From NCBI GenBank assembly GCA_002841905.1, contig PHBF01000001.1, forward strand, positions 1 to 40,512: a stretch of DNA of 40,512 bases, given 5' to 3'. The stretch comes from Deltaproteobacteria bacterium HGW-Deltaproteobacteria-17. GTDB lineage: Bacteria > Myxococcota_A > Polyangia > HGW-17. Made by a program: the position numbers and the translations under genes. Each line of letters begins with the position of its first letter. Position 1 is the stretch's first letter. The notes beneath the pieces were generated by a model. It searched no databases, had not been told where the DNA came from, and saw only the letters and a list, made by a program, of their open reading frames with translations. Shown piece after piece: positions 1,037 through 23,685 of this stretch.

Positions 1037-1047
1037 CCGGCCCTGTC

Positions 1048-1635
1048 ATGGAAAAAGACCGCCGCAGTCTCATCCTGGATTGCGCCAAGGAGCTCTTTGC
1101 CACCCGTGGCTACCATTCCACCGGCATCTCCGACATCATCGAAAAAGCCCAGGTGGCCCGGGGTACTTTTTATTTATATTTTGACTCCAAGCGCGCCGTT
1201 TTCGATGTGCTGCTGGAGTCCGCCTTCGAGACGATCCTGTCCTCGGTCAAGCCCGTGATCGTGGGGCCCACCCCTGATCGCGACAACATCCTGAAGCAGC
1301 TGCGAATCAACCTCGGTCGCGCGCTGGCGCCCCTGTTCGCCGATCGTCATCTGGCCCGCATCGTGGTCAGCCAGGCCGAGACCCTCGACGAGGCCGCCGC
1401 CGCACGCATGGAGGCCTTCTATGCGGCCCTGCGGCACTACCTCGAGGAGAGCCTCCAGGAAGGCCAGGAGAAGCACGTGATCCGGCAACTGAACACAAAG
1501 ATCGTCGCCACGGCCGCCGTGGGCATGATCAAGGGCATCGTCTGGACGCACGCGACCGGCTCGGAGTCCTTCGACTACCACGAGGTCGTCGAGGAGATCG
1601 TGGAGTGGGCCGCGATGGGCATCGTCACGCGGTGA
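1048..1635 (+). CDS. TetR/AcrR-family transcriptional regulator
   Basis: 195 aa. N-terminal HTH signature ILDCAKELFATRGYHSTGISDIIEKAQVARGTFYLYFDSKRAVF is typical of TetR_N. Starts 11 nt after the upstream stop. Confidence 0.9.
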   Translation: MEKDRRSLILDCAKELFATRGYHSTGISDIIEKAQVARGTFYLYFDSKRAVFDVLLESAFETILSSVKPVIVGPTPDRDNILKQLRINLGRALAPLFADRHLARIVVSQAETLDEAAAARMEAFYAALRHYLEESLQEGQEKHVIRQLNTKIVATAAVGMIKGIVWTHATGSESFDYHEVVEEIVEWAAMGIVTR

Positions 1636-1647
1636 AGAGGGAGTAAT

Positions 1648-2691: not shown

Positions 2692-2722
2692 CCCGGGCAG
2701 CGTCCTTCATCAGGAACAAGAC

Positions 2723-3043
2723 ATGCATCATCTTCACCGTTTCATCTTTTTCTCAGTTGCGATGGTCCTGGCAGCGACCTCCTGTTCCCACGTCACCTTC
2801 GCGCCGAAGTCCCGACAGGGTTTGATGCTGCTGGCGATCCCGCCTTCGGCCCAGGTCTACGTCGACCACAGGTACTGGGGCACCGGGATCGAACTGGAGC
2901 GGATCCCCCGCCTGCTCCCCATCGGACGTCACGAGCTGCTGATCGTCACGCCGGACCATTATCCCTACTACTCCACCTTCACCCTCAAGGCGCATGAACT
3001 GCTGCGCCGCAGGCCCGGGCTGGTCCGGATCTCGGAGAAATGA
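2723..3043 (+). CDS. Small PEGA-domain-like lipoprotein
   Basis: 106 aa. Signal peptide with lipobox (VLAATS-C). The body VYVDHRYWGTG...LPIGRHELLIVTPDHYPYYSTFTL resembles the PEGA motif (VxVDG..G.TP....l..G.H.l.v...GY). Confidence 0.6.
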   Translation: MHHLHRFIFFSVAMVLAATSCSHVTFAPKSRQGLMLLAIPPSAQVYVDHRYWGTGIELERIPRLLPIGRHELLIVTPDHYPYYSTFTLKAHELLRRRPGLVRISEK

Positions 3044-3046
3044 CCG

Positions 3047-4165
3047 ATGGATAAACCCTACGGCTTCGGATCACCCCGACGCACGCACCTGTTCCTCCAG
3101 ATCGCGATGCTCCTCGGAGCCCTGCTACTGATCGCGAACCTGCTCGTGCTGCTGATGCCGCTGGTCATCCCGGTTCTGATCTCGTTCTTCCTGGCGTACT
3201 TCTGCAACCCGTTCGTCACGCGGCTCGAAAAGCGGAGGGTTCCACGGACCGTCGGCATCCTGATCCTGCTCTCGCTGTTCGTGTTGTTCGTCTTCTTCTT
3301 CGTGCTGTTCATCGTGCCCCTGCTGGCCTCCCAGCTCGACGAGTTCATCCGCAAGATTCCCGGCTACACCATGGCCGTCAAGGCCTGGCTGATCCCCCGC
3401 ATCGAGAGCCTGCTGGACACGACGCTGCCCAACGCCTCCGAGGTGCTGGCCTCGGCCATGGACCGCTTCGGCTCGGACCTCTCCACCATCGCCCGTGACG
3501 CCGCCTCCCCCCTGCGCGAGGTGGCCACCTTCGCCGCGGCCGGCACCTACTTCCTCTTCACGTTTCTGGCCACGCTGTTCCTGATCCCGTTCTTCACGTT
3601 CTTCCTGCTGCGTGACTTCGACAAGCTCGGCCGGGTCTGGACGCGTCTGGTGCCCGCGCGCCACCACTGGTGGATGAAGGACCTGCTGCACGACATGGAC
3701 GGCACGATGAGCTCCTGGCTGCGCGGACAGATCCTGGTCATGGTCATCCTGGGCACCCTGTACTCCATCGGCTATTCCTGGATCGGCATCACCCTGAGCC
3801 TGTTCATCGGCCTGCTGACCGGTTTCATGGCCTTCATCCCCTACGTGGGCGCCTTCATCGGCTTCCTCCTTGCGCTCACCATGGCCATCCTCGACGGCGG
3901 TGGCTTCGGACCGGTCGTGGGCGTCTGCGTCGTCTTCGGCGGCGTGCAGATCCTCGACGGCTTCTTCATCACGCCCAACGTGCTGGGCAAGAGCGTCGGT
4001 CTCAACCCGGCGCTCGTGGTCGCCGCCTTGATGACCTTCGGCATCCTGTGGGGCTTCTGGGGCGCGCTCATCGCGGTGCCCTTCGCCGCCCTGCTGGCCG
4101 TGTTGACCCGCCACACCCTCAAGCTCTATCAGGGATCGGAATTTTATAATCGTTCCGAATCCTGA
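3047..4165 (+). CDS. AI-2E family transporter (UPF0118/PerM-like permease)
   Basis: 372 aa with multiple hydrophobic helices. Conserved-looking C-terminal half (GQILVMVILGTLYSIGYSWIG, FIPYVGAFIGF, ITPNVLGKSVGLNPALVV..FGILWGFWGALIAVP) is typical of the family. The ATG is 3 nt after the upstream stop. Confidence 0.85.
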   Translation: MDKPYGFGSPRRTHLFLQIAMLLGALLLIANLLVLLMPLVIPVLISFFLAYFCNPFVTRLEKRRVPRTVGILILLSLFVLFVFFFVLFIVPLLASQLDEFIRKIPGYTMAVKAWLIPRIESLLDTTLPNASEVLASAMDRFGSDLSTIARDAASPLREVATFAAAGTYFLFTFLATLFLIPFFTFFLLRDFDKLGRVWTRLVPARHHWWMKDLLHDMDGTMSSWLRGQILVMVILGTLYSIGYSWIGITLSLFIGLLTGFMAFIPYVGAFIGFLLALTMAILDGGGFGPVVGVCVVFGGVQILDGFFITPNVLGKSVGLNPALVVAALMTFGILWGFWGALIAVPFAALLAVLTRHTLKLYQGSEFYNRSES

Positions 4166-4216
4166 TTGGCGGTCGTTCGTATACATGGTAATAATACCGG
4201 CACAGGAGGACGACGG

Positions 4217-6295
<2,079 letters not shown>

Positions 6296-6314
6296 CACCC
6301 ACGGCAGGTGACCC

Positions 6315-7424
<1,110 letters not shown>

Positions 7425-7429
7425 ACCCC

Positions 7430-8953
7430 ATGCTGCCTCCGTACCTCCAGGAAATGCAGACACAGGTAGAGGCCGTCGCCCGCACCGCGGGCCTGGACTT
7501 CTTCGAGACGCGGTTCATCCTCGTGGATACCAAGACCATCAACGAGGTCGCCGCCTACGGCGGGTTCCCCTCGAGATACCCGCACTGGCGCTTCGGCATG
7601 GAATACGACCGTCTGGCCAAGGGCTCGCGCTACGGCCTGAGCAAGATCTACGAGCTCGTGATCAACAACGACCCCTGCTACGCCTACCTCCTCGAGGGAA
7701 ACAACCTGGTCGATCAGAAGATGGTCATGGCCCACGTGATGGCCCACAACGACTTCTTCAAGAACAACGTGTACTTCAAGTTCACCAACCGCAAGATGAT
7801 CGACGAGATGGCCAACCATGCCGTTAAAGTTCAAAAGATTATTGACCGTATCGGCATCGAGTCCGTGGAAAACTTCATTGACATCTGCCACAGCATGGAC
7901 AACCTGATCGATCCCTACAGCCTCTTCATCGCCCGGCCGCCCGCGACCCGCAAGGAGCTCGAGGACCTGATCGAGGAGGCCCGGCTGGCCGCGGCCGACA
8001 CCCCCGTCGGGCCCGAGGCCGAGAAGAAGGGTGCCGTGCGTTCCTACATGAAGGGCTTCCTCGCAGGCGACCGCAAGAACGTCGCCGAGACGCCGGTCCC
8101 CTCCGTCGGCCTGCGGAAGGAGCCCATCAACCCCACGCGCGACGTGCTGGGCTTCCTGCTGAACTGTGCGCCCCTGGAGGACTGGCAGCGCACGATCCTG
8201 GAGATCGTCCGCGAGGAGGCGTACTACTTCGCCCCCCAGGCCATGACCAAGATCATGAACGAGGGATGGGCCACCTTCTGGCACAGCCGGCTGATGACCC
8301 ATCACCTGATCGACGCCTCCGAGGTCATCCAGTTCGCGCACACCACCTCCGGCGTCACCGCCCAGGCACCGGGTCAGTTGAACCCGTACAAGATGGGCGT
8401 GGAGTTGTTCCGCGACATCGAACACCGGTGGAACCGCGGAATGCACGGCAAGGCCTGGCGCGACTGCGACGACTACGAGAAGAAGAAACACTGGGACACC
8501 GGGGCCGGAGAGGGTCTGCAGAAGATCTTCGAGGTGCGTCGCATGTTCAACGACGTCACCTTCATCGACGAGTTCCTCACGCCCGAGTTCCTGACCGAGC
8601 GGCTTTTCTACACGTACGATTACAGCCGCTCCAAGAACGAGTACGTCATCTCCTCGCGGGAGTTCTCGGAGATCAAGAGCCGCCTGCTGTTCCAGTTGAC
8701 CAACGGCGGACACCCGATCATCGCCGTGACCGATTCCGACTACGTCAACCGGGGCGAACTGCTCCTCGAACACAAGCACTACGGCGTGGATCTCGAGGTG
8801 CCCTACGCCAAGAGCACCCTGGAAAACCTCTTCACCATCTGGAAAAAGCCAGTCAATCTGGTCACGAAGGTCAAGGATCACCCCATGCTGCTGAGCTTCG
8901 ACGGCTCGGAACACACCTCCCGGGAGCTCCCCGTGTCCGCCGTTGGCGGTTGA
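7430..8953 (+). CDS. spoVR: SpoVR/YcgB-family protein
   Basis: The ORF track extends to 7220 and overlaps yeaH, which is an artefact. The ATG at 7430 (MLPPYLQEMQ) lies 5 nt after the yeaH stop; an in-frame GTG at 7421 is an alternative start. Motifs MAHVMAHNDFFKNN and MNEGWATFWHSRLM are typical of SpoVR. Confidence 0.88.
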   Translation: MLPPYLQEMQTQVEAVARTAGLDFFETRFILVDTKTINEVAAYGGFPSRYPHWRFGMEYDRLAKGSRYGLSKIYELVINNDPCYAYLLEGNNLVDQKMVMAHVMAHNDFFKNNVYFKFTNRKMIDEMANHAVKVQKIIDRIGIESVENFIDICHSMDNLIDPYSLFIARPPATRKELEDLIEEARLAAADTPVGPEAEKKGAVRSYMKGFLAGDRKNVAETPVPSVGLRKEPINPTRDVLGFLLNCAPLEDWQRTILEIVREEAYYFAPQAMTKIMNEGWATFWHSRLMTHHLIDASEVIQFAHTTSGVTAQAPGQLNPYKMGVELFRDIEHRWNRGMHGKAWRDCDDYEKKKHWDTGAGEGLQKIFEVRRMFNDVTFIDEFLTPEFLTERLFYTYDYSRSKNEYVISSREFSEIKSRLLFQLTNGGHPIIAVTDSDYVNRGELLLEHKHYGVDLEVPYAKSTLENLFTIWKKPVNLVTKVKDHPMLLSFDGSEHTSRELPVSAVGG

Positions 8954-8955
8954 TC

Positions 8956-10335
8956 ATGGCCCACGTCGGAGACCGGATCATCACCCGCATCGTCGATCTG
9001 ACGCCGGATTGGGAAGGCGTGGGCGTCTTTGGGGCCACCCCGGAAGCCGGGCGTGCCTTGGACTCCGCGGACCCGGCAAAGTCCACCGCCCCGCCACAGG
9101 ATGGAGACCTCGTGCGGGTACCCGGCGTGTGGCCGGGTGACATCGTCGAATGTGCGCTCCTGGCCCGAAGCCGGCACCACGGACACTGGTTCGGACGTGC
9201 GATGCGGGTCGTGGCCCACGGCGTCACCCGCCAGAGGAGCGTCTGTCCCGTGCAGGCCGCCTGTGGCGGCTGTGCCGCGCTGACCATCCCCTACGAAGCC
9301 CAGGTCGCCCGGAAACGGGCACACCTTGAGTCCCTGTTCCCGGGTGCGGGCTTCGTCTCGGCCCCGCAGCCCCTGCGCTATCGCGACAAGGTCAAGTGGA
9401 TCGTCGGCCCCGGCTCCGATGGCCGACCGACCGTCGGTTTCTACCGTCATGACTCCCACAACTTCCTGCCGATCTCCGACTGCGCCGTGCTCGCGCCGGC
9501 GCTGGCCCGGCTGGGTCGCGAGCTTCCCGGCGTGATCGCTGAGGTACCGATCTACAACGAGGCCGATCAAACCGGCCTGCTGCGCGCGATCCTGGCCAAG
9601 TGCACCTCCGCCGGCGAACTGCTGGTGACCTTCGTCGTCGCGGCCCGGCCCGACGCGGACATGGAAGCCAGGCTCTCGGCCGCCGGGACCCTCGAGGGGG
9701 TCTCGGGCGTCACCTGCAACCTGAACCCGGGAACCGGAAACCGGCTCACCGGCCATGTCGAATGGACGCTTGCGGGGGCGGATTCCCTCCGCGAGAGCGA
9801 TCATCCGGCCGGATACCTCGTCAACGCCACCTGCTTCTCCCAGGCGCATCATGCCATGGCCAAGGCGGCCGTCGAGACCATCGTCGGAGCGCTGCGTCCG
9901 GTGACCGAGCCGGTGCTTGACCTTTTTTGTGGAGTGGGCCCCATTGCCCTGGCCCTGGCCGCCGACGGCCACGCGGTGACCGGGGTGGAGCTCGAATCCC
10001 GCGCCATCGAGCTGGCCCGACAGGCGGATCCGTCACGGGCGTGGATCACCGCGGACGTGAACCGCACCGAGGCGCTGCCCACCCCCGTCGGAGACTTCGC
10101 CCTCGTGGTGAACCCGCCACGACAGGGGCTCTCCGCCGGGCTGGTGGCCTGGATCCAGGCCCAACCGATCCGGACGCTCGTGTATATGAGTTGCAACCCG
10201 CTGACCCTTGCCCGCGACGCGGCCCGCCTCACGGCCGCATCTTTCACCCTTGACACCGCCACAGGGTTCGATATGTTTCCTCAGACGCCATGGTTTGAAA
10301 CGGTAGCCCTTTTCTGTCGTCAGGAGAAATCATGA
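8956..10335 (+). CDS. 23S rRNA (uracil-C5)-methyltransferase, RlmD/RumA (TrmA) family, with Cys cluster
   Basis: The ORF track begins at 8266 inside spoVR, which is an artefact. The ATG at 8956 (MAHVGDRII) lies 2 nt after the spoVR stop. Fe-S-type Cys motif CPVQAACGGCAAL, SAM fold DLFCGVGPIAL, catalytic-type motifs VVNPPRQGL and YMSCNPLTLARD. Confidence 0.85.
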   Translation: MAHVGDRIITRIVDLTPDWEGVGVFGATPEAGRALDSADPAKSTAPPQDGDLVRVPGVWPGDIVECALLARSRHHGHWFGRAMRVVAHGVTRQRSVCPVQAACGGCAALTIPYEAQVARKRAHLESLFPGAGFVSAPQPLRYRDKVKWIVGPGSDGRPTVGFYRHDSHNFLPISDCAVLAPALARLGRELPGVIAEVPIYNEADQTGLLRAILAKCTSAGELLVTFVVAARPDADMEARLSAAGTLEGVSGVTCNLNPGTGNRLTGHVEWTLAGADSLRESDHPAGYLVNATCFSQAHHAMAKAAVETIVGALRPVTEPVLDLFCGVGPIALALAADGHAVTGVELESRAIELARQADPSRAWITADVNRTEALPTPVGDFALVVNPPRQGLSAGLVAWIQAQPIRTLVYMSCNPLTLARDAARLTAASFTLDTATGFDMFPQTPWFETVALFCRQEKS

Positions 10336-13193
10336 AGCAATCATTTCTCGTCTTTTTCTTGTTTGTTTTTTCCTGTTCAGCCTGTGAAACCGACCTCAAG
10401 GAAGGCCACTATACCTGCGATCCCAATGAACCGGGTGCCTGCCCCGACGGCTGGGTCTGCCAGTTGCGCGGCACCGACGGCATCTATCGCTGCTACGAGA
10501 CCGCCGGTGCCTATTGTCAGAACGGCGTGCTCGATCCCGGCGAGATCTGCGACGGCACCGACCTGGGCGACTTCACCTGTGAGGCCGGCTGGCCCATCTG
10601 CCTGACCAACTGCACCGCGATCTGCACCGAGTGCGGCAACGGCCACATCGAGCTCAACGAGTTCGGCGTGGGTGAGGAGTGCGACGACGGCAACTCCGAC
10701 GATGGTGACGGCTGCTCCTCGGAGTGCCTGATCGAACGCTCCTACTGCGTCGAACGCGACTCCGACGAATGCCTCAACTGGTGCGGCGACGGCATCATCA
10801 ACGGACCCGAACTGTGCGAACCCGGCAACCTCGGCGGCTACGACTGCACCGACTTTGGCTTCCACGACGGAACCCTGGGCTGCACGGCCGACTGCCGGGC
10901 CTTCGACGACTCCGCCTGCGCGCACTACTGCGGCGACGGCCAAATCCACGAGGTCGAGTCCTGCGACAGTTCTAATACAAATCATCAGCAATGCACTGAT
11001 TTTTACTTCAGCGGTGGCACCCTTGGCTGTGAATCAAACTGCTCATTCTCATTTTCTAATTGTTTCAATAGTTGGAAACGTCAGATTATCAGCACATTTG
11101 GAACCATTTCCGCGATCCATGGCACCGGACCTGAAAATGTTTTCGCTGTCAGTCTAAATGGGTGGATTGGCCAATGGGATGGTATATCCTGGACCGAATT
11201 CTCGATCGCTGGAAGTCCGATGTTGAACGGAGTCTTCACCAACGGCCCGAACGATGCATGGGCCATTGCATCAAACGGCACGGTACTTCAATTTGACGGG
11301 ACCCAATGGAATGATTCCATTTTTCCTCCCTCTACTTTAATATTGGGCATTTGGGGCAGCGCTTCTGACGACATGTACATTGTTGGCCAGGTCGAAGAAA
11401 TCGTCGTCGAGGGTGGTATCGAAGTCCCATATCGAGTTGGAGCTTTGTTTCACTACAATGGTGCCATCTGGCAAGAACTCTTCCGTCTTCCTGTTTCAGA
11501 GCTTGAGACTTCCCTAAAATCGATCTCCGGATCTGGGCCCGAAGACATCTGGGTTTCTGGAGATAATGCATCTCTATTTCATTACGACGGGATGGGTTGG
11601 ACACCAGTTAATCCTCCGGTTGAATGGACGGGAATCATCGACTTGAAGGTTCATGTCGTCGATTCCACCAGAATGATTCTACTTGCCATCGACAGCAATT
11701 ACTCTACTTATGGCGCTATCCATGAATTTGATTTTTTTAGACTACTGAACTTTGAACCTTCCACCAGAGTTACCGGCATCAGCGGAGGGACGCTTTTTGA
11801 TCTCGTCATGACCGTCGGTAATGCGCAGGTATTGCGCCTCGATGGAGATGCTTGGAGAACCCTGACTCCCGTACCACAAAGTCAGTTTTATTCCATCTGG
11901 AGCTATGATGGCGTCTTTTGGGTTGGCGGAAGCAACGGTTTACTGTTGAGATACGATGGAGATTTTGAATATTCATCTAAGGTCTTCTCTGAATCGATGA
12001 CTCGCATATGGGGTCCTAACAATGATGAATTATACGTCCTCAGTTTGTTCGGAAAAGTATATCACCTTGAAAATGGTTCTTGGACGCAAGAAACGGTCCC
12101 TGTCGGCTTGTCCCCCAAGGATCTCTGGGGCCCTGATGAGAATTTTATCATTGCGGTTGGATCCCAGGGAAAAACCGCAGTACGTCGTGACGGCGCCTGG
12201 AGTGCGCTTCCTTCCATCCCATCGAGCGTTCAAACCCTGTTTGCCGTACATGGATGTGATCATCAAAACATTTGGTCGGTCGGGCTATCCGGTCATATTC
12301 GAAAATTTGAAAATGATAATTGGATCGTCCAAACGCTTTCCGAAGTTTCGAGTACTCTTAACGACGTTTTCTGCAATAGTCCCACTGATGTATGGGCGGT
12401 AGGAATGAACGGAACTATACTGCACTATGACGGAAGCGTTTGGACATCCGTAGATTCTGGTACTAGCGAAACGCTCCAGTCAGTTTGGGCCAATAGCGAA
12501 GATAACGTATACGCCGTCGGGAACAATGGAATAATTCTACATTTCGATGGTGATTCCTGGTCCCGAATGGAATCCCTTGTTGGAATCACGCTTCGCGACA
12601 TCCAGGGTACAAATGCCCGTGACATCTGGACCGTTGGAAGTTCTGCCAACTTGCTCCATTATGATGGGATTCGTTTTTCCCCTATGACCATTCATGGATA
12701 TCCGGTAACAAATCGAATCCATATTCGCCCCAACGGAAACCGTGTAATCACGGCTGATACAAAATACATGGAATACCACAGTGCAGGTTTTATAAATGAC
12801 ACTTGTTTTTCTACCATTCCCCTCTACTGTGATGAAAACCGGTTCTTCGATACCGAGGGCCTCCCTGCTCGGTTTGATCAGTATCAAAATAATATTGGGT
12901 TTTCTGGCGCGGAAGCTTCATTTAATTTCACAGCTCCATTTTCCGGTCGGTTTAGTTGGACCCTGAGCCATACCTCTGCAAATACCCGCATCATTGCAAT
13001 TTCTGAGGACAAAGCAAACGACTGTGATACTTCACAAATTATTGGTATTTCAACTATTGGCCTCAACCCTGATACTCAGACCTTGGAATTATTGCTCGAA
13101 AGAAATTCCAAAATAATAATTGTTCTAGATTCATCAAATGCAACAACTGGGTATATTCATTCTGTTTGTGAGCGTATGGGCTATGTCAATTAA
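10332..13193 (+). CDS. Mosaic secreted/lipoprotein-like protein: Cys-rich repeat module, about 13-unit beta-propeller-type repeat array, and a C-terminal beta-rich domain
   Basis: 953 aa. Its ATG overlaps the upstream stop (ATGA at 10332-10335). Signal peptide MKQSFLVFFLFVFSCSAC. Four Cys-rich repeats of the CGNG/CGDG...ECDDGN..DGDGC type. Recurrent hYDGxxW units follow. The first 212 codons are GC-rich and the remainder is AT-rich. Confidence 0.85.
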   Translation: MKQSFLVFFLFVFSCSACETDLKEGHYTCDPNEPGACPDGWVCQLRGTDGIYRCYETAGAYCQNGVLDPGEICDGTDLGDFTCEAGWPICLTNCTAICTECGNGHIELNEFGVGEECDDGNSDDGDGCSSECLIERSYCVERDSDECLNWCGDGIINGPELCEPGNLGGYDCTDFGFHDGTLGCTADCRAFDDSACAHYCGDGQIHEVESCDSSNTNHQQCTDFYFSGGTLGCESNCSFSFSNCFNSWKRQIISTFGTISAIHGTGPENVFAVSLNGWIGQWDGISWTEFSIAGSPMLNGVFTNGPNDAWAIASNGTVLQFDGTQWNDSIFPPSTLILGIWGSASDDMYIVGQVEEIVVEGGIEVPYRVGALFHYNGAIWQELFRLPVSELETSLKSISGSGPEDIWVSGDNASLFHYDGMGWTPVNPPVEWTGIIDLKVHVVDSTRMILLAIDSNYSTYGAIHEFDFFRLLNFEPSTRVTGISGGTLFDLVMTVGNAQVLRLDGDAWRTLTPVPQSQFYSIWSYDGVFWVGGSNGLLLRYDGDFEYSSKVFSESMTRIWGPNNDELYVLSLFGKVYHLENGSWTQETVPVGLSPKDLWGPDENFIIAVGSQGKTAVRRDGAWSALPSIPSSVQTLFAVHGCDHQNIWSVGLSGHIRKFENDNWIVQTLSEVSSTLNDVFCNSPTDVWAVGMNGTILHYDGSVWTSVDSGTSETLQSVWANSEDNVYAVGNNGIILHFDGDSWSRMESLVGITLRDIQGTNARDIWTVGSSANLLHYDGIRFSPMTIHGYPVTNRIHIRPNGNRVITADTKYMEYHSAGFINDTCFSTIPLYCDENRFFDTEGLPARFDQYQNNIGFSGAEASFNFTAPFSGRFSWTLSHTSANTRIIAISEDKANDCDTSQIIGISTIGLNPDTQTLELLLERNSKIIIVLDSSNATTGYIHSVCERMGYVN
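10512..11063 (+). repeat. Four tandem Cys-rich protein repeats (Myxococcus-type cysteine-rich repeat)
   Basis: Units by eye are YCQNGVLDPGEICDG..C..C, CGNGHIELNEFGVGEECDDGNSDDGDGCSSEC, WCGDGIINGPELCEPGNLGGYDCTDFGFHDGTLGCTADC and YCGDGQIHEVESCDSSNTNHQQCTDFYFSGGTLGCESNC. Units 3 and 4 align position for position. Confidence 0.7.
11094..12690 (+). repeat. About 13 degenerate 40-50-aa protein repeats of the hYDGxxW type (beta-propeller blades); coordinates approximate
   Basis: Anchors seen in order: IGQWDGISW, VLQFDGTQW, LFHYNGAIW, LFHYDGMGW, IHEFDFFRL (degenerate), VLRLDGDAW, LLRYDGDFE, VYHLENGSW, AVRRDGAWS, IRKFENDNW, ILHYDGSVW, ILHFDGDSW, LLHYDGIRF. Each is preceded by a (D/N)hWAVG-like strand. 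Confidence 0.65.
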
Positions 13194-13330
13194 TCATCAT
13201 TCTCACATCATCCGTAAAAAGTTTTATAGTTTTCAATGCTATAAATACATAATTTCTATTAAATTGCCATTTCTGTAGCATTATATATTAACAACGCAGC
13301 AAACAGTTTACAATCAACATGGAGGCTCAT

Positions 13331-14824
13331 ATGAAGTATTTATTTTTTTTTACAATGGTTTTATATTCAACATCAGTAAGCGCTACTCCGTATTACGACA
13401 ATCAATACGATATAATGGATTTTCAGTACACACAAACTAGTGCATTAACTGGTAGCGGACTAGCCGCAACCAATGAATGGCTGTTTGTAGGCGTCCCAGG
13501 ATATGATAAAGTTCAGATTCGTCCGCTGCCAACACTTGTTGATGTTGGGGCGGTCCACGTTTATCGTAAAAATTTCAGCACGGGAGAATGGAACTATTTT
13601 CAACGCATTCTACCGCATTCCTCTGTGGACGCTTATTCATATTTTGGAAGTAGTATCGACGCTTCAGGAACGAAAGTCATCATCGGGGCTCCTGGCGGAA
13701 GATCGGGTGCAGGGTTTTCTGGGTTATATTCATTTAATGGAACATCCTGGGTACTTTCTCAACAAATTGAACCTTCTGGACTCGCAAGTTTAGATAATTT
13801 TGGTTTTTCAGTGGCCATTCAGGGTAATTGTATTGCCATTGGCACACCTGGAAGAGATGGTTATAGTGGGACGAATACCGGTGCTGTATATTTATATAAA
13901 TATGTAAATAATGTACTTACACTCATAAACACAAGTACTCCTCCTGCAATCCAATATTATTATCCCTACTATGGTTACTCTGTGGATGTTGTCGATCGTT
14001 ACTGGGATAATCCCGCCACCTGTTCAGTCGTTGTGGGTGCACCCAATGCCGTTGTGAATGGTAACCTTTTTGCGGGTTTCATCAAGAGTTATAAAATCAA
14101 TTATTCATCTACTCCTTATACCTTGACATTAACTGGATATTTTACTGGCCAAGCTGGCGATGAATTTGGTCGTTCTGTGAGTATGATCGAGTATTCGGGA
14201 ACCAACACTTATGATCGAATTTTTATTGGTTCTCCTGGGTATGCAAATGATGAAGGGAAAATCTCTGGATTGAGAAAATCAACTTCCAATCTATGGTCTA
14301 CCTGTACCACTCCATGTTTAATAAGTGAAACCATCAATTCTTCCAACGGTAGATATGGTGAAAAAGTCAATTTCAATAGTGAAATCGGACTGGTTTCAGA
14401 GCCGGAATATGGGAATTTTGGTAGAGTTCACGTTTTAGTTCGACATAACTGTTGGAATCAATCACCGTTTGTTGAGAACTGTTTTGTTCCGCTAGATACA
14501 ATCAATTCCCCAAACCTTCAAACCAATGAAGTTTTTGGTGGAAATATTTCAGTAGACTATACAAATACTCCTGCCAGTAATTATTTAGGCGAGAATGATT
14601 ATCTCACATTGTTTGTTTCCTCTCCAAAATATGATTATCTCTCTTACACTGATAATGGCATTGCCTACCAGTTTGGGGGGACCCTTGAACTTCTACCTTT
14701 GTGGCAATGCACGAATTGCGGATATCTTCACTCAGGAGAGCTTCCTCCGTTTACTTGCCCGGTTTGTATGGAGGATAGTACGTTCTTCACCGAATTAGAT
14801 GAATGGTTCCCTTTTGTATTCTGA
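13331..14824 (+). CDS. Secreted seven-blade FG-GAP (integrin-alpha-like) repeat protein with C-terminal rubredoxin/rubrerythrin-type Cys4 knuckle
   Basis: The ORF track starts at 13319, but GGAGG at 13321-13325 favours the ATG at 13331 (MKYLFFFTMVLYSTSVSA|T signal peptide). Seven units of the type (F/Y)G.S(V/I)....h.(I/V)G(A/S)PG....G.hYhh. C-terminus WQCTNCGYLHSGELPPFTCPVCMEDSTFF. AT-rich codon usage. Confidence 0.8.
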   Translation: MKYLFFFTMVLYSTSVSATPYYDNQYDIMDFQYTQTSALTGSGLAATNEWLFVGVPGYDKVQIRPLPTLVDVGAVHVYRKNFSTGEWNYFQRILPHSSVDAYSYFGSSIDASGTKVIIGAPGGRSGAGFSGLYSFNGTSWVLSQQIEPSGLASLDNFGFSVAIQGNCIAIGTPGRDGYSGTNTGAVYLYKYVNNVLTLINTSTPPAIQYYYPYYGYSVDVVDRYWDNPATCSVVVGAPNAVVNGNLFAGFIKSYKINYSSTPYTLTLTGYFTGQAGDEFGRSVSMIEYSGTNTYDRIFIGSPGYANDEGKISGLRKSTSNLWSTCTTPCLISETINSSNGRYGEKVNFNSEIGLVSEPEYGNFGRVHVLVRHNCWNQSPFVENCFVPLDTINSPNLQTNEVFGGNISVDYTNTPASNYLGENDYLTLFVSSPKYDYLSYTDNGIAYQFGGTLELLPLWQCTNCGYLHSGELPPFTCPVCMEDSTFFTELDEWFPFVF

Positions 14825-14826
14825 GT

Positions 14827-14845
14827 TTTCAGCGCTTGAAATTTT
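14827..14845 (+). terminator. Weak A/U-rich hairpin plus T-run between convergent genes (candidate terminator)
   Basis: TTTCAG-cgc-TTGAAA (5 Watson-Crick pairs plus 1 G-U) followed by TTTT at 14842-14845. Located in the 25-nt gap between the FG-GAP gene stop and the rpe stop. The stem is short and not GC-rich. Confidence 0.2.
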
Positions 14846-14849
14846 CATA

Positions 14850-15497
14850 TCAAAATAGCAACTGCAACTGTTGAATGAACGCGGCCCGGTCGGGGGCCCC
14901 AAACAGCGCGGACCCGGACACCAGCAGGTTGGCGCCGGCGGCCACGACCTGTGGGGCGGTGTTCAGGTCCACCCCGCCGTCGACCTCGATCAGCACGTCG
15001 GAGCGACCCGCCGCGTCGAGGATCCGGCGGCACTGGGCGAGCTTGGCCAGGCCTCCGGGAATGAACGCCTGACCGCCGAAGCCGGGGTTCACCGTCATGA
15101 TCAGCACCAGGTCCAGCACCTCCCAGACATGCTCGAGCACCGCCACCGGGGTGGACGGATTGAGCGCCACGCCGGCCTTCACGCCGCGCTTCTTCAGGTG
15201 GGAGAGCGTGCGGTGCAGGTGCACGTCGGCCTCGGCGTGGATCGTGACGATCGCGGCGCCCGCGTCGATGAACGCGTCGACGTGCCGGGCCGGCTGGGAG
15301 ATCATCAGGTGGACGTCCTGCGGGATGCCCGTCCGGGACAGGGCGCGCACCAGCCCGGGCCCGTAGGTGAGGTTGGGCACGAAATCCCCGTCCATGACGT
15401 CGATGTGGAGCCAGTCGCAGCCGCGGATGGACTCGATCTCTTGATCCAGGTGCAACATGTCCGCGCTCAGCAGGGAGGGAGCAACTTGCACGTGCAT
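14850..15497 (-). CDS. rpe: Ribulose-phosphate 3-epimerase
   Basis: 215 aa. APSLLSADMLHL, HIDVMDGDFVPNLTYGP and MTVNPGFGGQAFI are classical Rpe motifs. The last 9 codons (FIQQLQLLF) are AT-rich, unlike the rest of the gene. Confidence 0.93.
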   Translation of the reverse strand: MHVQVAPSLLSADMLHLDQEIESIRGCDWLHIDVMDGDFVPNLTYGPGLVRALSRTGIPQDVHLMISQPARHVDAFIDAGAAIVTIHAEADVHLHRTLSHLKKRGVKAGVALNPSTPVAVLEHVWEVLDLVLIMTVNPGFGGQAFIPGGLAKLAQCRRILDAAGRSDVLIEVDGGVDLNTAPQVVAAGANLLVSGSALFGAPDRAAFIQQLQLLF

Positions 15498-15501
15498 GGT
15501 C

Positions 15502-16851
15502 TTACCCCTGTTTTTTCAGCCGGGCGACGTAGAAGCCGTCGGTGTTGTGTCGGTTGGGAAGCAGCACCAGATCACCATGGGCGTTGGTGCACTCGGACCA
15601 GGGAATCCCCGGCACCTCGGGCGCGGGCATGCGCTCGAACTCCGGGTGCATCGACAGGAAGTGGGCGACCCGTTCGGTGGTCTCCGGAGGCCAGAAGGTG
15701 CAGACCACGTAGGCCAGCATGCCGCCGGGCGCGACGCGGGAGGCCATGGCCTCGAGCAACTGGGCCTGCTTCTTGGCCATGGAGCGGGCCTCCTCCTGGG
15801 TGAGCCGCCACTTGGCCTCGGGATGCCGGCGCAGCACGCCGAGCCCGGAGCAGGGCGCGTCCAGCAGGATCACATCGAAGACTCCCTCGGGCTGCTCCTT
15901 GATGAGGTTCATGGTGGCCGTGGAGATGCAGGTGATGCCGGCACGGCGGGCCCGCTGGGAGAGGGCGTCCATCTTCGAGGCCTTCAGGTCCACGGCCAGG
16001 ATCGAGGCCTCGTTGGTCAGCCGGGCGGCCATGTGCAGCGACTTGCCGCCGGTGCCGGCGCAGGCGTCGAGGATGCGCTGCCCGGGCTTCGGATCCACAA
16101 AGAACACGACCAACTGGGAGCCCTCGTCCTGGACGAGGTACCAGCCCTCGCGGTGGAGGTCCTGACGGATCGGGTCGGGCAGGCCCTGCACCTCGACCCC
16201 GACCGGTGAAAACCGCGTGGGGGCGATCGAGGCGTCCGGGAACTGCAGGTGCAGTTTCTCCATCAGGGCTTCCCGATCGGTGCGGATCACATTGGTGCGG
16301 AGGATCGTGCGGGCCCGCTGGTTGAGCGACTCGAGCAGGCCGTCGGCCTCGTCGGGACCGACGGTGTCCACGGCCGCCTGGACCATCCATGGCGCGAAGG
16401 AATGCACGACCCCCATGCGCGCGAACCGGTCGTCCGTGGGGGAAAACGGTGGTTCGCCCTGGTGGGCCAGCTTGCGCAACACCGCGTTGACGAACCCCGA
16501 CGGCGTGGTGCCCACGTGGAGGCGCGTCAGTTCCACCGCGCGGTCCACGGCGATCGCATGCGGGATGTTCTGCATGAACAGGATCTGATAGGCCCCGATC
16601 AGCAGCTGGCGCCGCACGAAGGGATGGCAGTGATCCAGCGAGGAGTTGGCGTACTCGGAGACCGCCCGCTCCAGCCGGGTGCGGTGACGCAGCACGCCAA
16701 ACAGTATTTCCTTGCTTAAAGCCCTTACCTCCCGGGAGAGGTTTCCGCTCATGGCGACCGCGTCGAACGCGATCGAGGCGTAGGCGTTGTGCCGCTCCAC
16801 CCGGGCCAGCACTTCCTGGGCCAGCAGGCGTGGTTCGTCTGAAAGATTCAT
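15502..16851 (-). CDS. rsmB: 16S rRNA (cytosine967-C5)-methyltransferase RsmB (Sun)
   Basis: The ORF track runs to 17145 over fmt, which is an artefact. The ATG at 16851 (MNLSDEPRLLAQEVL) overlaps the fmt stop (ATGA). NusB-like N-domain, then ILDACAGTGGKSLHMA, DVILLDAPCSGLGVLRRHPE and YVVCTFWPPE. Confidence 0.9.
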   Translation of the reverse strand: MNLSDEPRLLAQEVLARVERHNAYASIAFDAVAMSGNLSREVRALSKEILFGVLRHRTRLERAVSEYANSSLDHCHPFVRRQLLIGAYQILFMQNIPHAIAVDRAVELTRLHVGTTPSGFVNAVLRKLAHQGEPPFSPTDDRFARMGVVHSFAPWMVQAAVDTVGPDEADGLLESLNQRARTILRTNVIRTDREALMEKLHLQFPDASIAPTRFSPVGVEVQGLPDPIRQDLHREGWYLVQDEGSQLVVFFVDPKPGQRILDACAGTGGKSLHMAARLTNEASILAVDLKASKMDALSQRARRAGITCISTATMNLIKEQPEGVFDVILLDAPCSGLGVLRRHPEAKWRLTQEEARSMAKKQAQLLEAMASRVAPGGMLAYVVCTFWPPETTERVAHFLSMHPEFERMPAPEVPGIPWSECTNAHGDLVLLPNRHNTDGFYVARLKKQG

Positions 16852-17783
16852 TCTCTTCCTCGTAGTACCGTCTTTTCCGGTATCGGGTGTCCGACCAGCA
16901 CGTTTCGCGCCGGCATGCGTTTTCCTCCGGGCCATTGCATCTCTCCAGTGACCACCGCGTCCTGTCCGCAGGCGACGGCCAGGCCGCCGGTGGTGAGCCC
17001 CAGCACGGTTCCCGCCGGGGCGGACGCCGGAATCACACCGGGTGAAAAAAATTTGATCCTCGCATCGCCGAGATAGGCATACGCGCCCGGCCGCGAATCG
17101 AAGGCCCGCAGATGCGAGGCCACCTCGACTGCCGACTTTCTCCAATCGATCAAAGCCATCTCCGTGGTCAGGAACGGCGCGCGCGTGGCGAGGGCGTCAT
17201 CCTGGGGTATCCGGGGAAGCGGCACGCCGGACGCGGCCTCCTGCTCCAGAACCTCGGCCAGCGCCGCGGCACCCTCCATGGCGAGGCGGCACAGCAGGCT
17301 GTCGGCGTTCTCCTCCGGAGAGATCGTCGTGGACACCTGCCGTACGATGTCACCTGCGTCCATCGCCTCGTTCATCTGCATGATGGTGACCCCCGTGGTC
17401 TGCTCACCGTGATAGAGCGTCCAGGGCACGGGGGCGGGTCCACGCCAGCGTGGAAGGAGCGACGGATGGATGTTGAGCGCACCATGCCGGGCCGTGGCCA
17501 GGACCGACGCCGGCAGGATGCGGCCATAGGCGACCACGACAAGGTAGTCGGCCTTCAGTTCGGCCAGCTTCCGGGCAAAGCCCTCGGTGCGAACGGCGCG
17601 CGGGGTCGACACTTCAAGTCCGAGCTCGCGGGCCCGTAGCTCCACCGGCGTCGGCAGGCACTTCTGGCCCCGGCCGCAGGGACGCTCCGGCTGCGTCACC
17701 ACCAGCACGATTTCATGGGAGCCGTGCAGCGTGCCCAACGCAGGGAGAGCAAAATCCGGAGAGCCGAAAAAAACAATGCGCAA
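16848..17783 (-). CDS. fmt: Methionyl-tRNA formyltransferase
   Basis: The ORF track runs to 18209, which is an artefact. The homologous part begins at (L)RIVFFGSPDFALPAL. A TTG at 17783 with GAGG 9 nt upstream gives a 311-aa product. A GTG 9 codons upstream is an alternative start. Motif HGALNIHPSLLPRWRGPAPV. Confidence 0.85.
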   Translation of the reverse strand: MRIVFFGSPDFALPALGTLHGSHEIVLVVTQPERPCGRGQKCLPTPVELRARELGLEVSTPRAVRTEGFARKLAELKADYLVVVAYGRILPASVLATARHGALNIHPSLLPRWRGPAPVPWTLYHGEQTTGVTIMQMNEAMDAGDIVRQVSTTISPEENADSLLCRLAMEGAAALAEVLEQEAASGVPLPRIPQDDALATRAPFLTTEMALIDWRKSAVEVASHLRAFDSRPGAYAYLGDARIKFFSPGVIPASAPAGTVLGLTTGGLAVACGQDAVVTGEMQWPGGKRMPARNVLVGHPIPEKTVLRGRE

Positions 17784-17833
17784 AGGACCGAACCTCAGGG
17801 TTGCGGGCACCCTTCCAGGACCCGAAAGTTCAG

Positions 17834-19375
17834 CTACAATGACAGAAGGGACATCGACTTGTCCATGCTTTTTTTCAACTTCTCGATGTCCGAGGAGAGC
17901 AGGATCCGCAAGGGCACCGGAAACGAAGCCAGCTGGATGAGGATTTCCTGGTGAACCCGGCGCGCGGAGGCCGCGGTGTCGCCGAAAAACTGGTCGGTTG
18001 GCTGCATGCGGAGGTTCTCCTCGAGCGTGCGGAAGCGACGTCGGAGGATTTCCGCGGCCGGAAGCGACGCGGGCAGGGCCGGCTCGCACAACTGGAAGAG
18101 GCGGCACGCGTAGGCGAGCGTCCAGGACTCGGCCACCGAGAGTCCGGAACGGATGCACGCCTCGGCCCAGGGCGTGCCACCGGCGAGCAGACGCAGCGCG
18201 CGGACCCACAGGGGGTCGAAGTCGGCGTCGTCAAAGAGGGGGACCCACTGCACGGACGTGCCCGACGGCGGCGTGCAATCGCACAGCGCGCAGGCCAGAT
18301 CCGCCCCGAAGTGTTCCACCACACCACAGAACAAAAGCGGTTTCGGGTCCAGCAGCGGCAGGTGACGCCGGAACTCCATCCCGTCGGCCGGAAGCGGGGA
18401 CCGGGTGGCGGTGATCGCGAGGCGGATCGCTTCGCGCCGGCAGCGCAGGAGCCATTTGGTCTCCTCCTCGGGGGAGATCAGTTGCCGCCGCACCGCCCAC
18501 TCGATGGGGTCCGACAGCGTGCGCGTCAGATCTCCGGCCAACGCCGAGCCTGCACCGGAGAGCTGCAACAGGTGCTGCAGGATCGGCGCGTAGCCTTCCA
18601 GATCGCCCACGCGGCCGTTCTCCCAGGACATGCGCACCGTGAACTGCGGCAAAGAGATCTCCAGCGCGCCGGAGAACCCCGCGGTGTGCAGCCGCAGCAG
18701 GTGCTGCGCCATGTTGCCCTCGAAGGGCGTGCCGGGTGTGGACGGAACCGGGCCCCGCGGCTCGTCGGGCTGCGGCAGGATCGCGTCCACAGGCGCCACG
18801 ACGGTGTTGCGCCGCAGGATGCCTGGTGCCGTGACCTGTTCGGCGTGGACCGAAGTCCCGGCAGACTGAATCCGGCGCTCGGAGGTGCCCAGGGAGAACA
18901 TGTCGTCGGGCAGCGGCAGCTCACCGAAGGGCTCCGGCAGCGGTTCGAGGGTGTTCTGCGCCGGATGATCCTCGAGATCCTCGATCACCTCGTGGGGTTC
19001 GGTGAAGGCCGGCTCCCGTGGCACCGGGATGCCTCCGAGGGTGAACAGTTCGTCACCCAGCGCCGGCAGCTCGGAGGAACTCCCGTCGTCGACGGGCCGC
19101 ATGCCCAGGCCATCGAGCCGACGGCGCAGGTCGTCCTTCAGCGCGGACCACTGGGCGGGAAGGGAGTAGATCGCGGCGTCCCTCCATCCCCCGGACACCT
19201 TCAGGACCATGGATGTGGTCGACGCCGGTTGATTGGCATCCAGCTCCAGAGTCAGATCGGCGGGCTCCCCCGATGTCTTCCCGATGGATAACTGGACCTG
19301 CCCAAACTCGGCGCGCAAAGTTTCCTCGATGGAAAAAGACAGTTCCTGTCGATCCGGGATCTGAATTCGCGGCAT
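17834..19375 (-). CDS. Hypothetical 513-aa protein (possible DUF4388-like central module); sits where def is usually found
   Basis: Long ORF with high GC3. GAGG lies 8 nt upstream of the ATG at 19375. Acidic/Pro-rich linker. The central segment HLLRLHTAGFSGALEISLPQFTVRMSWENGRVGDLEG resembles the DUF4388 pattern (weak, from memory). Lies 50 nt upstream of fmt. Confidence 0.7.
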   Translation of the reverse strand: MPRIQIPDRQELSFSIEETLRAEFGQVQLSIGKTSGEPADLTLELDANQPASTTSMVLKVSGGWRDAAIYSLPAQWSALKDDLRRRLDGLGMRPVDDGSSSELPALGDELFTLGGIPVPREPAFTEPHEVIEDLEDHPAQNTLEPLPEPFGELPLPDDMFSLGTSERRIQSAGTSVHAEQVTAPGILRRNTVVAPVDAILPQPDEPRGPVPSTPGTPFEGNMAQHLLRLHTAGFSGALEISLPQFTVRMSWENGRVGDLEGYAPILQHLLQLSGAGSALAGDLTRTLSDPIEWAVRRQLISPEEETKWLLRCRREAIRLAITATRSPLPADGMEFRRHLPLLDPKPLLFCGVVEHFGADLACALCDCTPPSGTSVQWVPLFDDADFDPLWVRALRLLAGGTPWAEACIRSGLSVAESWTLAYACRLFQLCEPALPASLPAAEILRRRFRTLEENLRMQPTDQFFGDTAASARRVHQEILIQLASFPVPLRILLSSDIEKLKKSMDKSMSLLSL

Positions 19376-19723
19376 GTGGAAAACCTCGATTCCAAGCCGT
19401 TTTAGCAGGTTCGCGAGGTTTCATCAACCAGATCATTGAGGACCGGAAAAAAGTGAAAAATAGGTTGACAGGGATCGCTTTTCACGGTACCAAAATAGAG
19501 TGTGATGAAGATTCGACGGTTCGGGGAATTGGAGTCACGCACTTTTTGCGAACATTTATTTCGCTTTTGACATCTCAATGATTCAGGGTTCCGTAGACAG
19601 CGTCAGGCTGTCATCGGGAAAGGAGCGTGGAACATGAGGAACTGATCCCGTTTTTCATTGTTCACACTTTTTTTGATTGTAGTTTTCTCAATTTTTAAAC
19701 ATAATTATTTTCAGGAGGACGCC

Positions 19724-21484: not shown

Positions 21485-21535
21485 TCTGTAAAAATTTTCT
21501 ATATTAAAAATTCTGAATCAAACGGTGGGGTTCTT

Positions 21536-23673: not shown

Positions 23674-23685
23674 GCGGCTTTGTCT

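What the first reader, a model, noticed from the sequence alone, without database searches (positions are those of the whole stretch)
10926..11063. Compositional breakpoint lies in frame inside one Cys-rich repeat unit, giving a mosaic gene
The fourth Cys-rich unit (YCGDGQIHEVESCD|SSNTNHQQCTDFYFSGGTLGCESNC) aligns residue for residue with the third (WCGDGIINGPELCEPGNLGGYDCTDFGFHDGTLGCTADC). Yet its first 14 codons use host-like GC-rich codons, and everything after codon 212 (nt ~10968) uses AT-rich codons. A repeat that is continuous at the protein level but discontinuous in nucleotide composition is what a homologous crossover between a resident gene and a diverged foreign homologue would produce. 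This implies that the N-terminal export and Cys-rich stalk is a conserved handle on which C-terminal propeller heads can be swapped.
Basis: seen in the sequence. Interest (0 to 1): 0.7.

Follow-up and report, generated by a model that had tools for sequence, protein, structure and literature searches.

The report
Mosaic surface-protein gene with swapped head
A predicted cell-surface protein gene in an uncultured groundwater myxobacterium keeps its own stalk but carries a foreign, AT-rich binding head acquired by recombination, a familiar way for bacteria to vary surface proteins, seen here in an unstudied protein family.

Summary
In ORF 10332-13193, GC3 falls from 0.83 to 0.44 at codon 212 (nt 10968; support interval 10959-10971), far beyond permutation. 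The step is the left edge of a 3.9-kb low-GC segment (10968-14861). This segment replaces about 2.3 kb found in the closest relatives. Those relatives are collinear at about 90% and 85% identity on the two sides and unalignable in between.

Upstream and downstream DNA group the window with L002/L010 (bootstrap 100). The head groups with L001/L005, which have a different backbone (bootstrap 100). It is only about 40% identical in protein to every other orthologue.

Four independent assemblies carry both junctions at 99.99-100% identity, so this is not an assembly join.

Head exchange recurs at this locus: L002 and L010 are 95-99% identical in the flanks but about 60% in the head.

- The junction is shared with L001/L005, so it is probably older than this genome.
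- The crossover maps 20-55 nt upstream of the GC step.
- The tract reaches the last three codons of rpe and includes an extra FG-GAP gene.

This is a new example of a known process. The closest analogue is myxobacterial TraA, but the protein is not a TraA family member.

The parts
8968..10335 (+). Resident upstream gene, an RNA (uracil-5) methyltransferase-like protein. Its stop overlaps the ATG of the mosaic gene (ATGA).
   Evidence: Pfam PF05958/PF13649. About 85% nt identity to L002/L010 and about 70% to L001. Conserved synteny.
10332..13193 (+). Mosaic gene (953 aa): signal peptide with a conserved Cys, Cys-rich stalk, tandem beta-propeller head, and a C-terminal beta-sandwich.
   Evidence: ORF. 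TIGR02232 at 43.8 bits, cut-off 20.8. AlphaFold model with mean pLDDT 85.2. Full-length orthologues in the same synteny.
10332..10385 (+). Signal peptide ending in an invariant Cys18 (probable lipoprotein anchor; inferred).
   Evidence: Cys18 is invariant in 11 orthologues. The hydrophobic N-terminus is modelled as a helix, residues 2-14. No lipoprotein predictor was run.
10386..10967 (+). GC-rich stalk-coding part (Cys-rich repeat units), collinear with the resident backbone.
   Evidence: GC3 0.88. BLAST alignments to L002, L010, L003 and L009 all end at 10967. 87-90% nt identity to L002/L010 for codons 20-180.
10912..10971 (+). Junction interval inside Cys-rich unit 4. The phylogenetic breakpoint is at 10912-10949 and the compositional step at 10959-10971.
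   Evidence: Max chi-square 64-86 against permutation maxima of 20.5-27.2. GC3 change point at codon 212. Informative sites in 10913-10967 favour L001 over L010 by 11 to 3.
10968..13193 (+). Foreign low-GC 'type B' head: the end of Cys unit 4, two beta-propellers (about aa 250-800) and a C-terminal beta-sandwich (about aa 800-950).
   Evidence: GC3 0.44. 70% identity to the L001 head and about 49% nt / 40% aa identity to all type-A heads. Fold matches to double-propeller ectodomains.
10968..14861 (.). Whole replaced low-GC tract (3894 bp). It has no DNA-level counterpart in the closest backbones, where about 2.3 kb stands in its place.
   Evidence: The window aligns to L002/L010 over 371-10967 (about 90%) and 14862-24803 (about 85%), with nothing between. 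Composition.
13319..14824 (+). Extra gene inside the tract: an exported FG-GAP_2 propeller protein with a C-terminal rubredoxin-like zinc ribbon. GC 0.40, GC3 0.32.
   Evidence: Pfam PF14312 and PF21349. Absent between the gene and rpe in L002 and L003, in L005 and, from the BLAST coordinates, in L009 and L010. The only notable relative is a 35% paralogue in the same MAG.
14850..15497 (-). Resident ribulose-phosphate 3-epimerase (rpe), convergent. Its last three codons plus stop (14850-14861) lie in the replaced tract.
   Evidence: Pfam PF00834. Homology to relatives resumes at 14862 ('CTGCAACTG'). The tail is ..LQLLF* here..LQMLN* in L005, and ..LQGL*/..LQAL* in type-A loci.

Best explanation
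The gene is a recombinant allele of a conserved, syntenic surface-protein gene of a clade of subsurface Myxococcota. Its 5' part (signal peptide and Cys-rich stalk) and both flanks belong to the resident, roughly 64% GC backbone (sister to L002/L010). Everything from the middle of Cys-rich unit 4 to the last three codons of the convergent rpe gene is a diverged allele ('type B'). That allele evolved for a long time under AT-biased mutation in an unsampled relative that branches deeper than all sampled orthologues. It entered by homologous recombination, using the highly conserved stalk DNA on the left and the 3' end of rpe on the right. The same two junctions occur in the non-sister lineage L001/L005. 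About 55 nt of still GC-rich stalk upstream of the step are already L001-like. The stalk/head junction was therefore most likely created once, earlier. The mosaic allele then probably moved between high-GC backbones by crossovers in conserved flanking DNA and is ameliorating at different rates (GC3 0.44 here, 0.60 in L001). The FG-GAP gene is an additional insertion specific to this lineage. Functionally (inferred), the protein is an outer-surface lipoprotein. A disulfide-rich stalk would hold a tandem beta-propeller ligand-binding head away from the membrane. Recurrent replacement of the head suggests diversifying or frequency-dependent selection on what the head binds. Shown: the composition step, the replaced tract, the phylogenetic switch, recurrence at the locus, and authenticity of the junction. 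Inferred: a single origin of the junction, a low-GC donor, surface location, and the selective reason.
For: The composition step lies at codon 212 (delta lnL 56 against 12 for the permutation maximum). The window is collinear with L002/L010 up to 10967 and from 14862, with nothing between. NJ trees give (L002,L010)+window at bootstrap 100 upstream and (L002,L010) at bootstrap 100 with window as their nearest neighbour downstream. For the head they give (window,L001) at bootstrap 100. The breakpoint is at 10912-10949, max chi-square 64-86. L001, with parents L003 and window, switches at the same place, 10943-10949. The type-B head is 37-43% identical to all type-A heads, including the outgroup clade L008/P0010/P0011. 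Type-A heads are at least 45% identical to each other. Outgroup family members are 20-31% identical to both types. GC1, GC2 and amino-acid composition have shifted as well as GC3. Identity at 4-fold sites between the window and L001 heads is 0.40, against 0.26 expected by chance. Both type-B loci share a right junction with a three-residue AT-coded rpe tail. Both junctions are identical in L024, L025 and L026. Other exchanges occur at the locus: L002 against L010 has 95-99% flanks and a 58-67% head, and the L002 breakpoint at 10468-10496 points towards L009. The ORF is intact, its model is confident (pLDDT 85.2), and invariant W/G positions are kept.
Against: No donor was found. Nothing is closer to the type-B head than L001 at 70%, even in a head-only search. 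The low-GC source lineage is therefore inferred from composition alone. The crossover interval rests on a few dozen informative sites. A single origin of the junction requires unequal amelioration in the two lineages (GC3 0.44 against 0.60). My back-of-envelope calculation says this is compatible with the 4-fold-site divergence, but I did not model it formally. The right junction shows no stretch of visible donor/recipient homology, so the right-hand join could be illegitimate rather than homologous. Surface location and binding function are not tested.
Confidence: 0.85

Rival explanations
1. The window lineage and the L001/L005 lineage each imported the head directly and independently from related low-GC donors. 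In this view the GC step is itself the crossover point in this genome.
For: The window's head is much less ameliorated (GC3 0.44, GC at 4-fold sites 0.43) than L001's (0.60, 0.65), although the two are near saturation at synonymous sites. The compositional step and the phylogenetic breakpoint coincide within 20-55 nt.
Against: Two independent events would have to end at the same codon on the left and within the same three codons of rpe on the right. A fully AT-rich donor stalk would share little DNA identity with the recipient stalk, so it would be a poor substrate for homologous recombination. Sites in 10913-10967 are GC-rich yet already L001-like, 11 to 3.
Confidence: 0.25
2. Assembly chimera: a contig of the high-GC organism was wrongly joined, through the conserved stalk, to sequence of a co-occurring lower-GC relative.
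For: The sequence comes from a metagenome-assembled genome. The stalk DNA is conserved between co-occurring relatives. The related scaffold L010 has a run of N exactly at this junction.
Against: The same 8.7-14.9 kb, including both junctions, is 99.99-100% identical in three further assemblies from different records and assemblers. A chimera would need two compensating joins. A different backbone (L001/L005) shows the same step.
Confidence: 0.02
3. In-place compositional decay: the head became AT-rich in this lineage through relaxed selection or a local mutational bias, without any transfer.
For: The head is less conserved than the stalk in all orthologues. Type-A heads also have slightly lower GC3 than their stalks (0.77-0.88 against 0.81-0.95).
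Against: The sister genomes L002/L010 are about 90% identical to the window up to 10967 and then unalignable. The head groups with a non-sister lineage at bootstrap 100. The ORF is intact over 741 AT-rich codons, and family-invariant residues are kept.
Confidence: 0.03
4. Insertion of a mobile genomic island by site-specific recombination or transposition.
For: The tract is a discrete 3.9-kb AT-rich block containing an extra gene absent from relatives.
Against: There is no integrase or transposase ORF in the tract, no flanking direct or inverted repeats, and no tRNA. There is no similarity to phage or plasmid records. The tract replaces homologous sequence in frame rather than interrupting it.
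Confidence: 0.04

Closest known systems
TraA, the polymorphic outer-membrane-exchange receptor of Myxococcus and other Myxococcales (PMC3820747, PMC6372800)
   Same: Both are myxobacterial proteins with a conserved Cys-rich tandem-repeat region next to the membrane anchor and a polymorphic distal head. In TraA, trees of the variable domain disagree with full-length trees. Horizontal transfer and recombination between alleles at the head/stalk boundary have been proposed (PMC6372800; PMC3820747 Fig. S2). The same pattern is seen here.
   Different: The order is reversed: here it is N-terminal anchor, stalk, then C-terminal head. The head is a roughly 550-aa tandem beta-propeller plus a beta-sandwich, not a PA14-like domain. 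No MYXO-CTERM was detected. There is no adjacent traB-like gene; the neighbours are a methyltransferase and rpe. No function has been tested.
Mosaic surface-protein or antigen genes produced by homologous recombination with diverged alleles (for example flagellin central regions, pneumococcal and neisserial surface proteins). This comparison rests on my own knowledge.
   Same: Conserved ends or flanks supply the homology. A variable middle or distal part is replaced. This produces phylogenetic incongruence and sometimes a composition step.
   Different: Here one crossover lies inside a repeat unit of the same gene and the other in the last codons of a neighbouring housekeeping gene. The imported allele differs by about 40 GC3 points from the host.
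Tandem beta-propeller ectodomains such as the periplasmic sensor of Bacteroides hybrid two-component systems (4a2l, 3v9f) and PorZ (5m11)
   Same: Two consecutive propellers are followed by a beta-sandwich. These are the best Foldseek matches (E about 1e-17, TM-score 0.38-0.47 normalised to the target).
   Different: Sequence identity is 9-13%, and the fold similarity is generic for double propellers. The domain context differs (a lipoprotein stalk rather than a transmembrane sensor). No ligand can be inferred.

Membership tests
Recombinant (mosaic) gene | A significant breakpoint, with different parents on either side | tested here: met
   Max chi-square is 64-86, against permutation maxima of 27.2 and 20.5 for the respective tests, at 10912-10949. 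BLAST collinearity with L002/L010 ends at 10967.
Recombinant (mosaic) gene | Well-supported phylogenetic incongruence between segments | tested here: met
   Upstream: ((L002,L010)100,window)100. Downstream: (L002,L010)100 with window nearest. Head: (window,L001)100.
Recombinant (mosaic) gene | The junction is real and not an assembly join | tested here: met
   L024, L025 and L026 carry both junctions at 99.99-100% identity. Reads themselves were not available.
Myxococcal Cys-rich repeat proteins (TIGR02232 / Pfam DUF4215) | Profile match above the curated cut-off | tested here: met
   TIGR02232 scores 43.8 bits against a cut-off of 20.8, in 2 stretches. Pfam DUF4215 scores 24.4 bits, below its cut-off of 27.
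TraA receptor family | PA14-like variable domain | tested here: not met
   There is no PA14 hit in Pfam at E<=0.01. The head is modelled as a tandem beta-propeller.
TraA receptor family | C-terminal MYXO-CTERM sorting tag | tested here: not met
   The NCBIfam scan returned only TIGR02232. The C-terminus is ...SVCERMGYVN, with no hydrophobic tail.
TraA receptor family | Partner gene traB (OmpA / thrombospondin-repeat protein) in the same operon | tested here: not met
   The neighbours are a methyltransferase upstream and, downstream, the FG-GAP gene and a convergent rpe. The synteny is the same in relatives, without the FG-GAP gene.
TraA receptor family | Homotypic, allele-specific cell-cell recognition | not testable with these tools
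   This needs experiments with cells carrying defined alleles.
Genomic island / mobile element | Integrase or transposase, flanking repeats, a tRNA or other attachment site | tested here: not met
   No such ORF is present. There are no boundary repeats, no tRNA, and no phage or plasmid similarity.
Bacterial lipoprotein | Signal peptide followed by a lipobox Cys | tested here: inconclusive
   Cys18 is invariant and follows a hydrophobic stretch with Ala at position -1 in all orthologues. The -3 and -2 positions are atypical in some, and no dedicated predictor was available.
Tandem beta-propeller sensor or adhesin ectodomains | Two propellers plus a beta-sandwich with specific similarity to a characterised member | tested here: inconclusive
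   The model is confident (pLDDT 85.2). The best PDB matches have TM-scores of 0.38-0.47 and 9-13% identity, which is generic.

The most novel reading that the evidence does not exclude
The syntenic gene (between the methyltransferase and rpe) may be a previously unrecognised polymorphic recognition locus of uncultured subsurface Myxococcota. It would be a topologically inverted counterpart of TraA: lipid anchor, then Cys-rich stalk, then exchangeable double-propeller head. Deeply diverged allele classes (A and B, about 40% identity) would be kept in circulation by frequency-dependent selection, for example from kin recognition or from phage or predator pressure on the receptor. They would be passed between lineages as cassettes bounded by the stalk and rpe.
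Probability: 0.15. Interest if true: 0.7.

Novelty: new member of a known kind. Interest (0 to 1): 0.45.

Why it matters
The finding gives a clean, well-bounded natural example of in-frame allelic replacement inside a repeat unit. Both junctions are mapped to within tens of bases and confirmed in several assemblies. It flags an uncharacterised, conserved surface lipoprotein of deep-subsurface Myxococcota as a recombination hot spot: at least three exchanges among seven sampled lineages. Loci of this kind usually mark the interface with phages, prey, kin or host surfaces. For annotators, it shows that a sharp GC3 step inside an intact ORF can be real biology and not a chimeric contig. The shared junctions, combined with different degrees of amelioration in two backbones, also offer a small test case for amelioration clocks.

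Tried and rejected
- Assembly artefact: rejected, because three further assemblies are identical across both junctions.
- Mobile element: no boundary repeats, no tRNA, no Rfam family, and no phage or plasmid similarity to the 3.9-kb tract.
- Search for the donor: the full-length search, the head-only search and scans of genome and metagenome contigs found nothing closer to the type-B head than L001/L005 at 70%.
- FG-GAP gene: its homologue search gave only a 35% paralogue in the same MAG, itself in an AT-rich islet. This gave no clue to the donor.
- A second change point inside the head (codon 897, GC3 0.45 to 0.25) is not significant (permutation p = 0.08).
- Other Cys-rich repeat genes in the window that could serve as gene-conversion partners: none found. 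The CG[DN]G motif occurs only in this gene, apart from one chance hit.
- A bootstrapped protein tree of 28 family members timed out. I replaced it with identity tables.
- One contig look-up failed for lack of capacity and was repeated.
- dN/dS was not attempted, because synonymous sites are near saturation.
Full report
**1. What is at the coordinates**

The window matches a contig of the metagenome-assembled genome 'Deltaproteobacteria bacterium HGW-Deltaproteobacteria-17' (exact protein match P0001). ORF 10332-13193 (+, 953 aa) starts with a hydrophobic signal sequence that ends in a Cys invariant among orthologues. Cys-rich repeat units follow (TIGR02232 at 43.8 bits, above its cut-off; Pfam DUF4215 just below its cut-off), and then about 700 residues with no Pfam match. 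An AlphaFold model built on 28 family members (mean pLDDT 85.2) shows a mostly non-regular, Cys-rich N-terminal part. It is followed by two consecutive beta-propellers (about aa 250-800) and a C-terminal beta-sandwich. The best PDB matches are double-propeller ectodomains, namely Bacteroides hybrid two-component sensors and PorZ. Their TM-scores are only 0.38-0.47 and identity is 9-13%, so the similarity is generic.

**2.

- GC3 drops from 0.83 (0.88 for codons 20-212) to 0.44 at codon 212, nt 10968.
- The gain in log-likelihood is 56.2, against a maximum of 12.3 in 5000 permutations. The 2-lnL support interval is codons 209-213.
- The step lies inside the fourth Cys-rich unit.
- GC1, GC2 and amino-acid composition shift too (FYMINK 25.6% against 17.6-19.2% in relatives' heads). 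This points to long evolution under AT pressure rather than recent decay.
- The step is the left edge of a low-GC tract of about 3.9 kb that runs to about 14861. The tract also holds a second ORF, 13319-14824. That ORF encodes an FG-GAP_2 propeller with a rubredoxin-like C-terminus (GC 0.40, GC3 0.32).

**3. Relatives**

Full-length orthologues exist in a conserved housekeeping neighbourhood: PrkA, DUF444, SpoVR, methyltransferase, this gene, then convergent rpe, rsmB and fmt.

BLASTN of the window against its closest backbones, L002 and L010, gives two collinear blocks. These are 371-10967 at about 90% and 14862-24803 at about 85%, with nothing between. Alignments to L003 and L009 stop and restart at the same two coordinates. 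In those loci about 2.3 kb (a GC-rich head, GC3 0.77-0.88) stands where the window has 3.9 kb. No FG-GAP gene lies between the gene and rpe.

Within the head, the window is closest to L001/L005 (70% nt and aa identity). It is only about 49% nt and 40% aa identical to every other orthologue. In the upstream methyltransferase the pattern is reversed: about 85% to L002/L010 and about 70% to L001.

NJ trees make this formal:

| Segment | Grouping | Bootstrap |
|---|---|---|
| Upstream 2.8 kb | ((L002,L010),window); (L003,L001) | 100, 100; 95.5 |
| Downstream 3 kb | (L002,L010), with window nearest | 100 |
| Head | (window,L001) | 100 |

A maximum chi-square scan of informative sites puts the switch at 10912-10949 (chi-square 64-86, against permutation maxima of 27.2 and 20.5 for the respective tests).

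**4. Not an artefact**

Three further assemblies contain 8.7-14.9 kb spanning both junctions at 99.99-100% identity to the window. They are GCA_017973855.1, an ENA MEGAHIT assembly, and a JGI assembly.

**5. Where the foreign head comes from**

The type-B head (window, L001/L005) is 37-43% identical to all type-A heads. This includes the outgroup clade L008/P0010/P0011, whose stalks are only about 64% identical to the rest. Type-A heads are at least 45% identical among themselves. More distant family members are 20-31% identical to both types.

Type B therefore branches outside all sampled orthologues but inside the wider family. It is a diverged allele of the same gene, not a different domain. 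No closer relative was found, even with a head-only query, so the donor is unsampled. Its low GC is inferred from composition.

**6. The junctions are shared with a non-sister lineage**

L001/L005 has a backbone closest to L003 (84%). It still carries a type-B head with the same step (GC3 0.93 in the stalk against 0.60 in the head). Its breakpoint lies at the equivalent of 10943-10949.

L001 ends in sequencing adapter. The clean copy, L005, shows the gene's stop, a 25-nt AT-rich spacer, and then the rpe 3' end starting at the same 'CTGCAACTG' as in the window. In both type-B loci the rpe tail after ..LQ has three AT-coded residues (LLF*, MLN*). In type-A loci it has two (GL*, AL*).

In the window, the last 55 nt or so before the step are still GC-rich but already L001-like, 11 informative sites to 3.

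Taken together, this favours a single, older origin of the stalk/head and head/rpe junctions. The whole mosaic allele would then have spread between high-GC backbones through crossovers in conserved flanking DNA.

Identity at 4-fold degenerate sites between the two type-B heads is 0.40, against 0.26 expected by chance. GC at these sites is 0.43 and 0.65. By my rough two-state calculation (not a tool result), this is compatible with one introduction from a very AT-rich source followed by unequal amelioration. Independent imports are not excluded.

The FG-GAP gene is absent from L005. It is therefore an extra, lineage-specific insertion, or a loss in L005.

**7. Head exchange recurs at this locus**

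- L002 and L010 are 95-99% identical in the flanks. Identity drops to 58-67% across most of the head and recovers in rpe.
- L002's head and most of its stalk are L009-like, with a breakpoint at the equivalent of 10468-10496.
- P0007 and P0009 also pair in the head (78%) but not in the stalk.

The stalk is far more conserved than the head (83-90% against 40-78% aa identity among the closer lineages). It supplies DNA homology for crossovers at different positions.

**8. Mechanism and function**

Shown: replacement of a homologous tract bounded by the conserved stalk and the 3' end of rpe. No integrase, boundary repeats, tRNA, or phage or plasmid similarity is present.

Inferred: the protein is a surface lipoprotein. 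A disulfide-rich stalk would project a ligand-binding double propeller from the membrane. The recurrent allele turnover would reflect diversifying or frequency-dependent selection on what the head binds.

The closest known system in concept is TraA of Myxococcus. It has a conserved Cys-rich repeat region next to the anchor, a polymorphic distal domain, and reported horizontal transfer and recombination between alleles (PMC3820747, PMC6372800). This protein is not a TraA family member. It has no PA14-like domain, no MYXO-CTERM and no traB neighbour, and its domain order is reversed.

**9. Verdict**

The process itself (mosaic surface-protein genes arising by homologous recombination) is well known. 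What is new is the family, the exactness of the junction mapping, and the evidence that this conserved locus is an allele-exchange hot spot in uncultured subsurface Myxococcota. Interest is moderate.

Noticed in passing
window 13319-14824; L027 8001-9422: The FG-GAP_2 gene inside the tract (GC 0.40, GC3 0.32) has a 35%-identical paralogue, P0123, on another contig of the same MAG. That paralogue sits in its own AT-rich islet of about 2 kb (GC 0.40, GC3 0.30) within a background of about 0.68 GC. No closer homologue exists in the 5.8-billion-protein collection. Why two diverged paralogues both stay so AT-rich is unexplained.
   Followed up: partly
window 14700-14824: The FG-GAP protein has an N-terminal signal-like sequence but ends in a rubredoxin-like CxxC...CxxC zinc ribbon (PF21349, E = 1.5e-10). 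This is an unusual combination for an exported protein.
   Followed up: no
L010 about 10692-10746: The scaffold of HGW-Deltaproteobacteria-22 (named like the window's MAG, HGW-Deltaproteobacteria-17, so probably from the same study) has a 55-N gap exactly at the fourth Cys-rich unit, at the stalk/head junction. This may reflect co-existing head alleles in that population.
   Followed up: no
L001 1-46 and 6826-6875: This public contig (ERZ724098 NODE_5206) begins and ends with Illumina adapter sequence. The last residues of the database protein P0002 (..KIGRAQV) are therefore artefactual. L005 gives the true 3' end.
   Followed up: yes
window 10332-10436: The first 35 codons or so (signal peptide) have GC3 0.51, against 0.90 in the rest of the stalk (permutation p < 0.001). 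All orthologues show this, so it is a feature of the gene's 5' end and not a second recombination junction.
   Followed up: yes
window 10332-10335: The gene's ATG overlaps the stop of the upstream methyltransferase (ATGA), and a GGAG lies 7 nt upstream. This suggests co-transcription and translational coupling with a housekeeping RNA methyltransferase.
   Followed up: no
window 19301-19700 and 35611-35871: There are two further short low-GC spots (GC 0.42-0.49). Both are intergenic. The second lies upstream of a 3712-aa ORF on the minus strand (24472-35610), whose L002 counterpart has faint TPR matches.
   Followed up: partly
proteins P0254, P0256, P0262, P0244 and others: The double-propeller head module occurs at 25-31% identity in many other bacteria. 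There it is fused to Ser/Thr kinases, Big_2, PKD or cadherin-like modules. It therefore appears to be a widely reused extracellular module.
   Followed up: no
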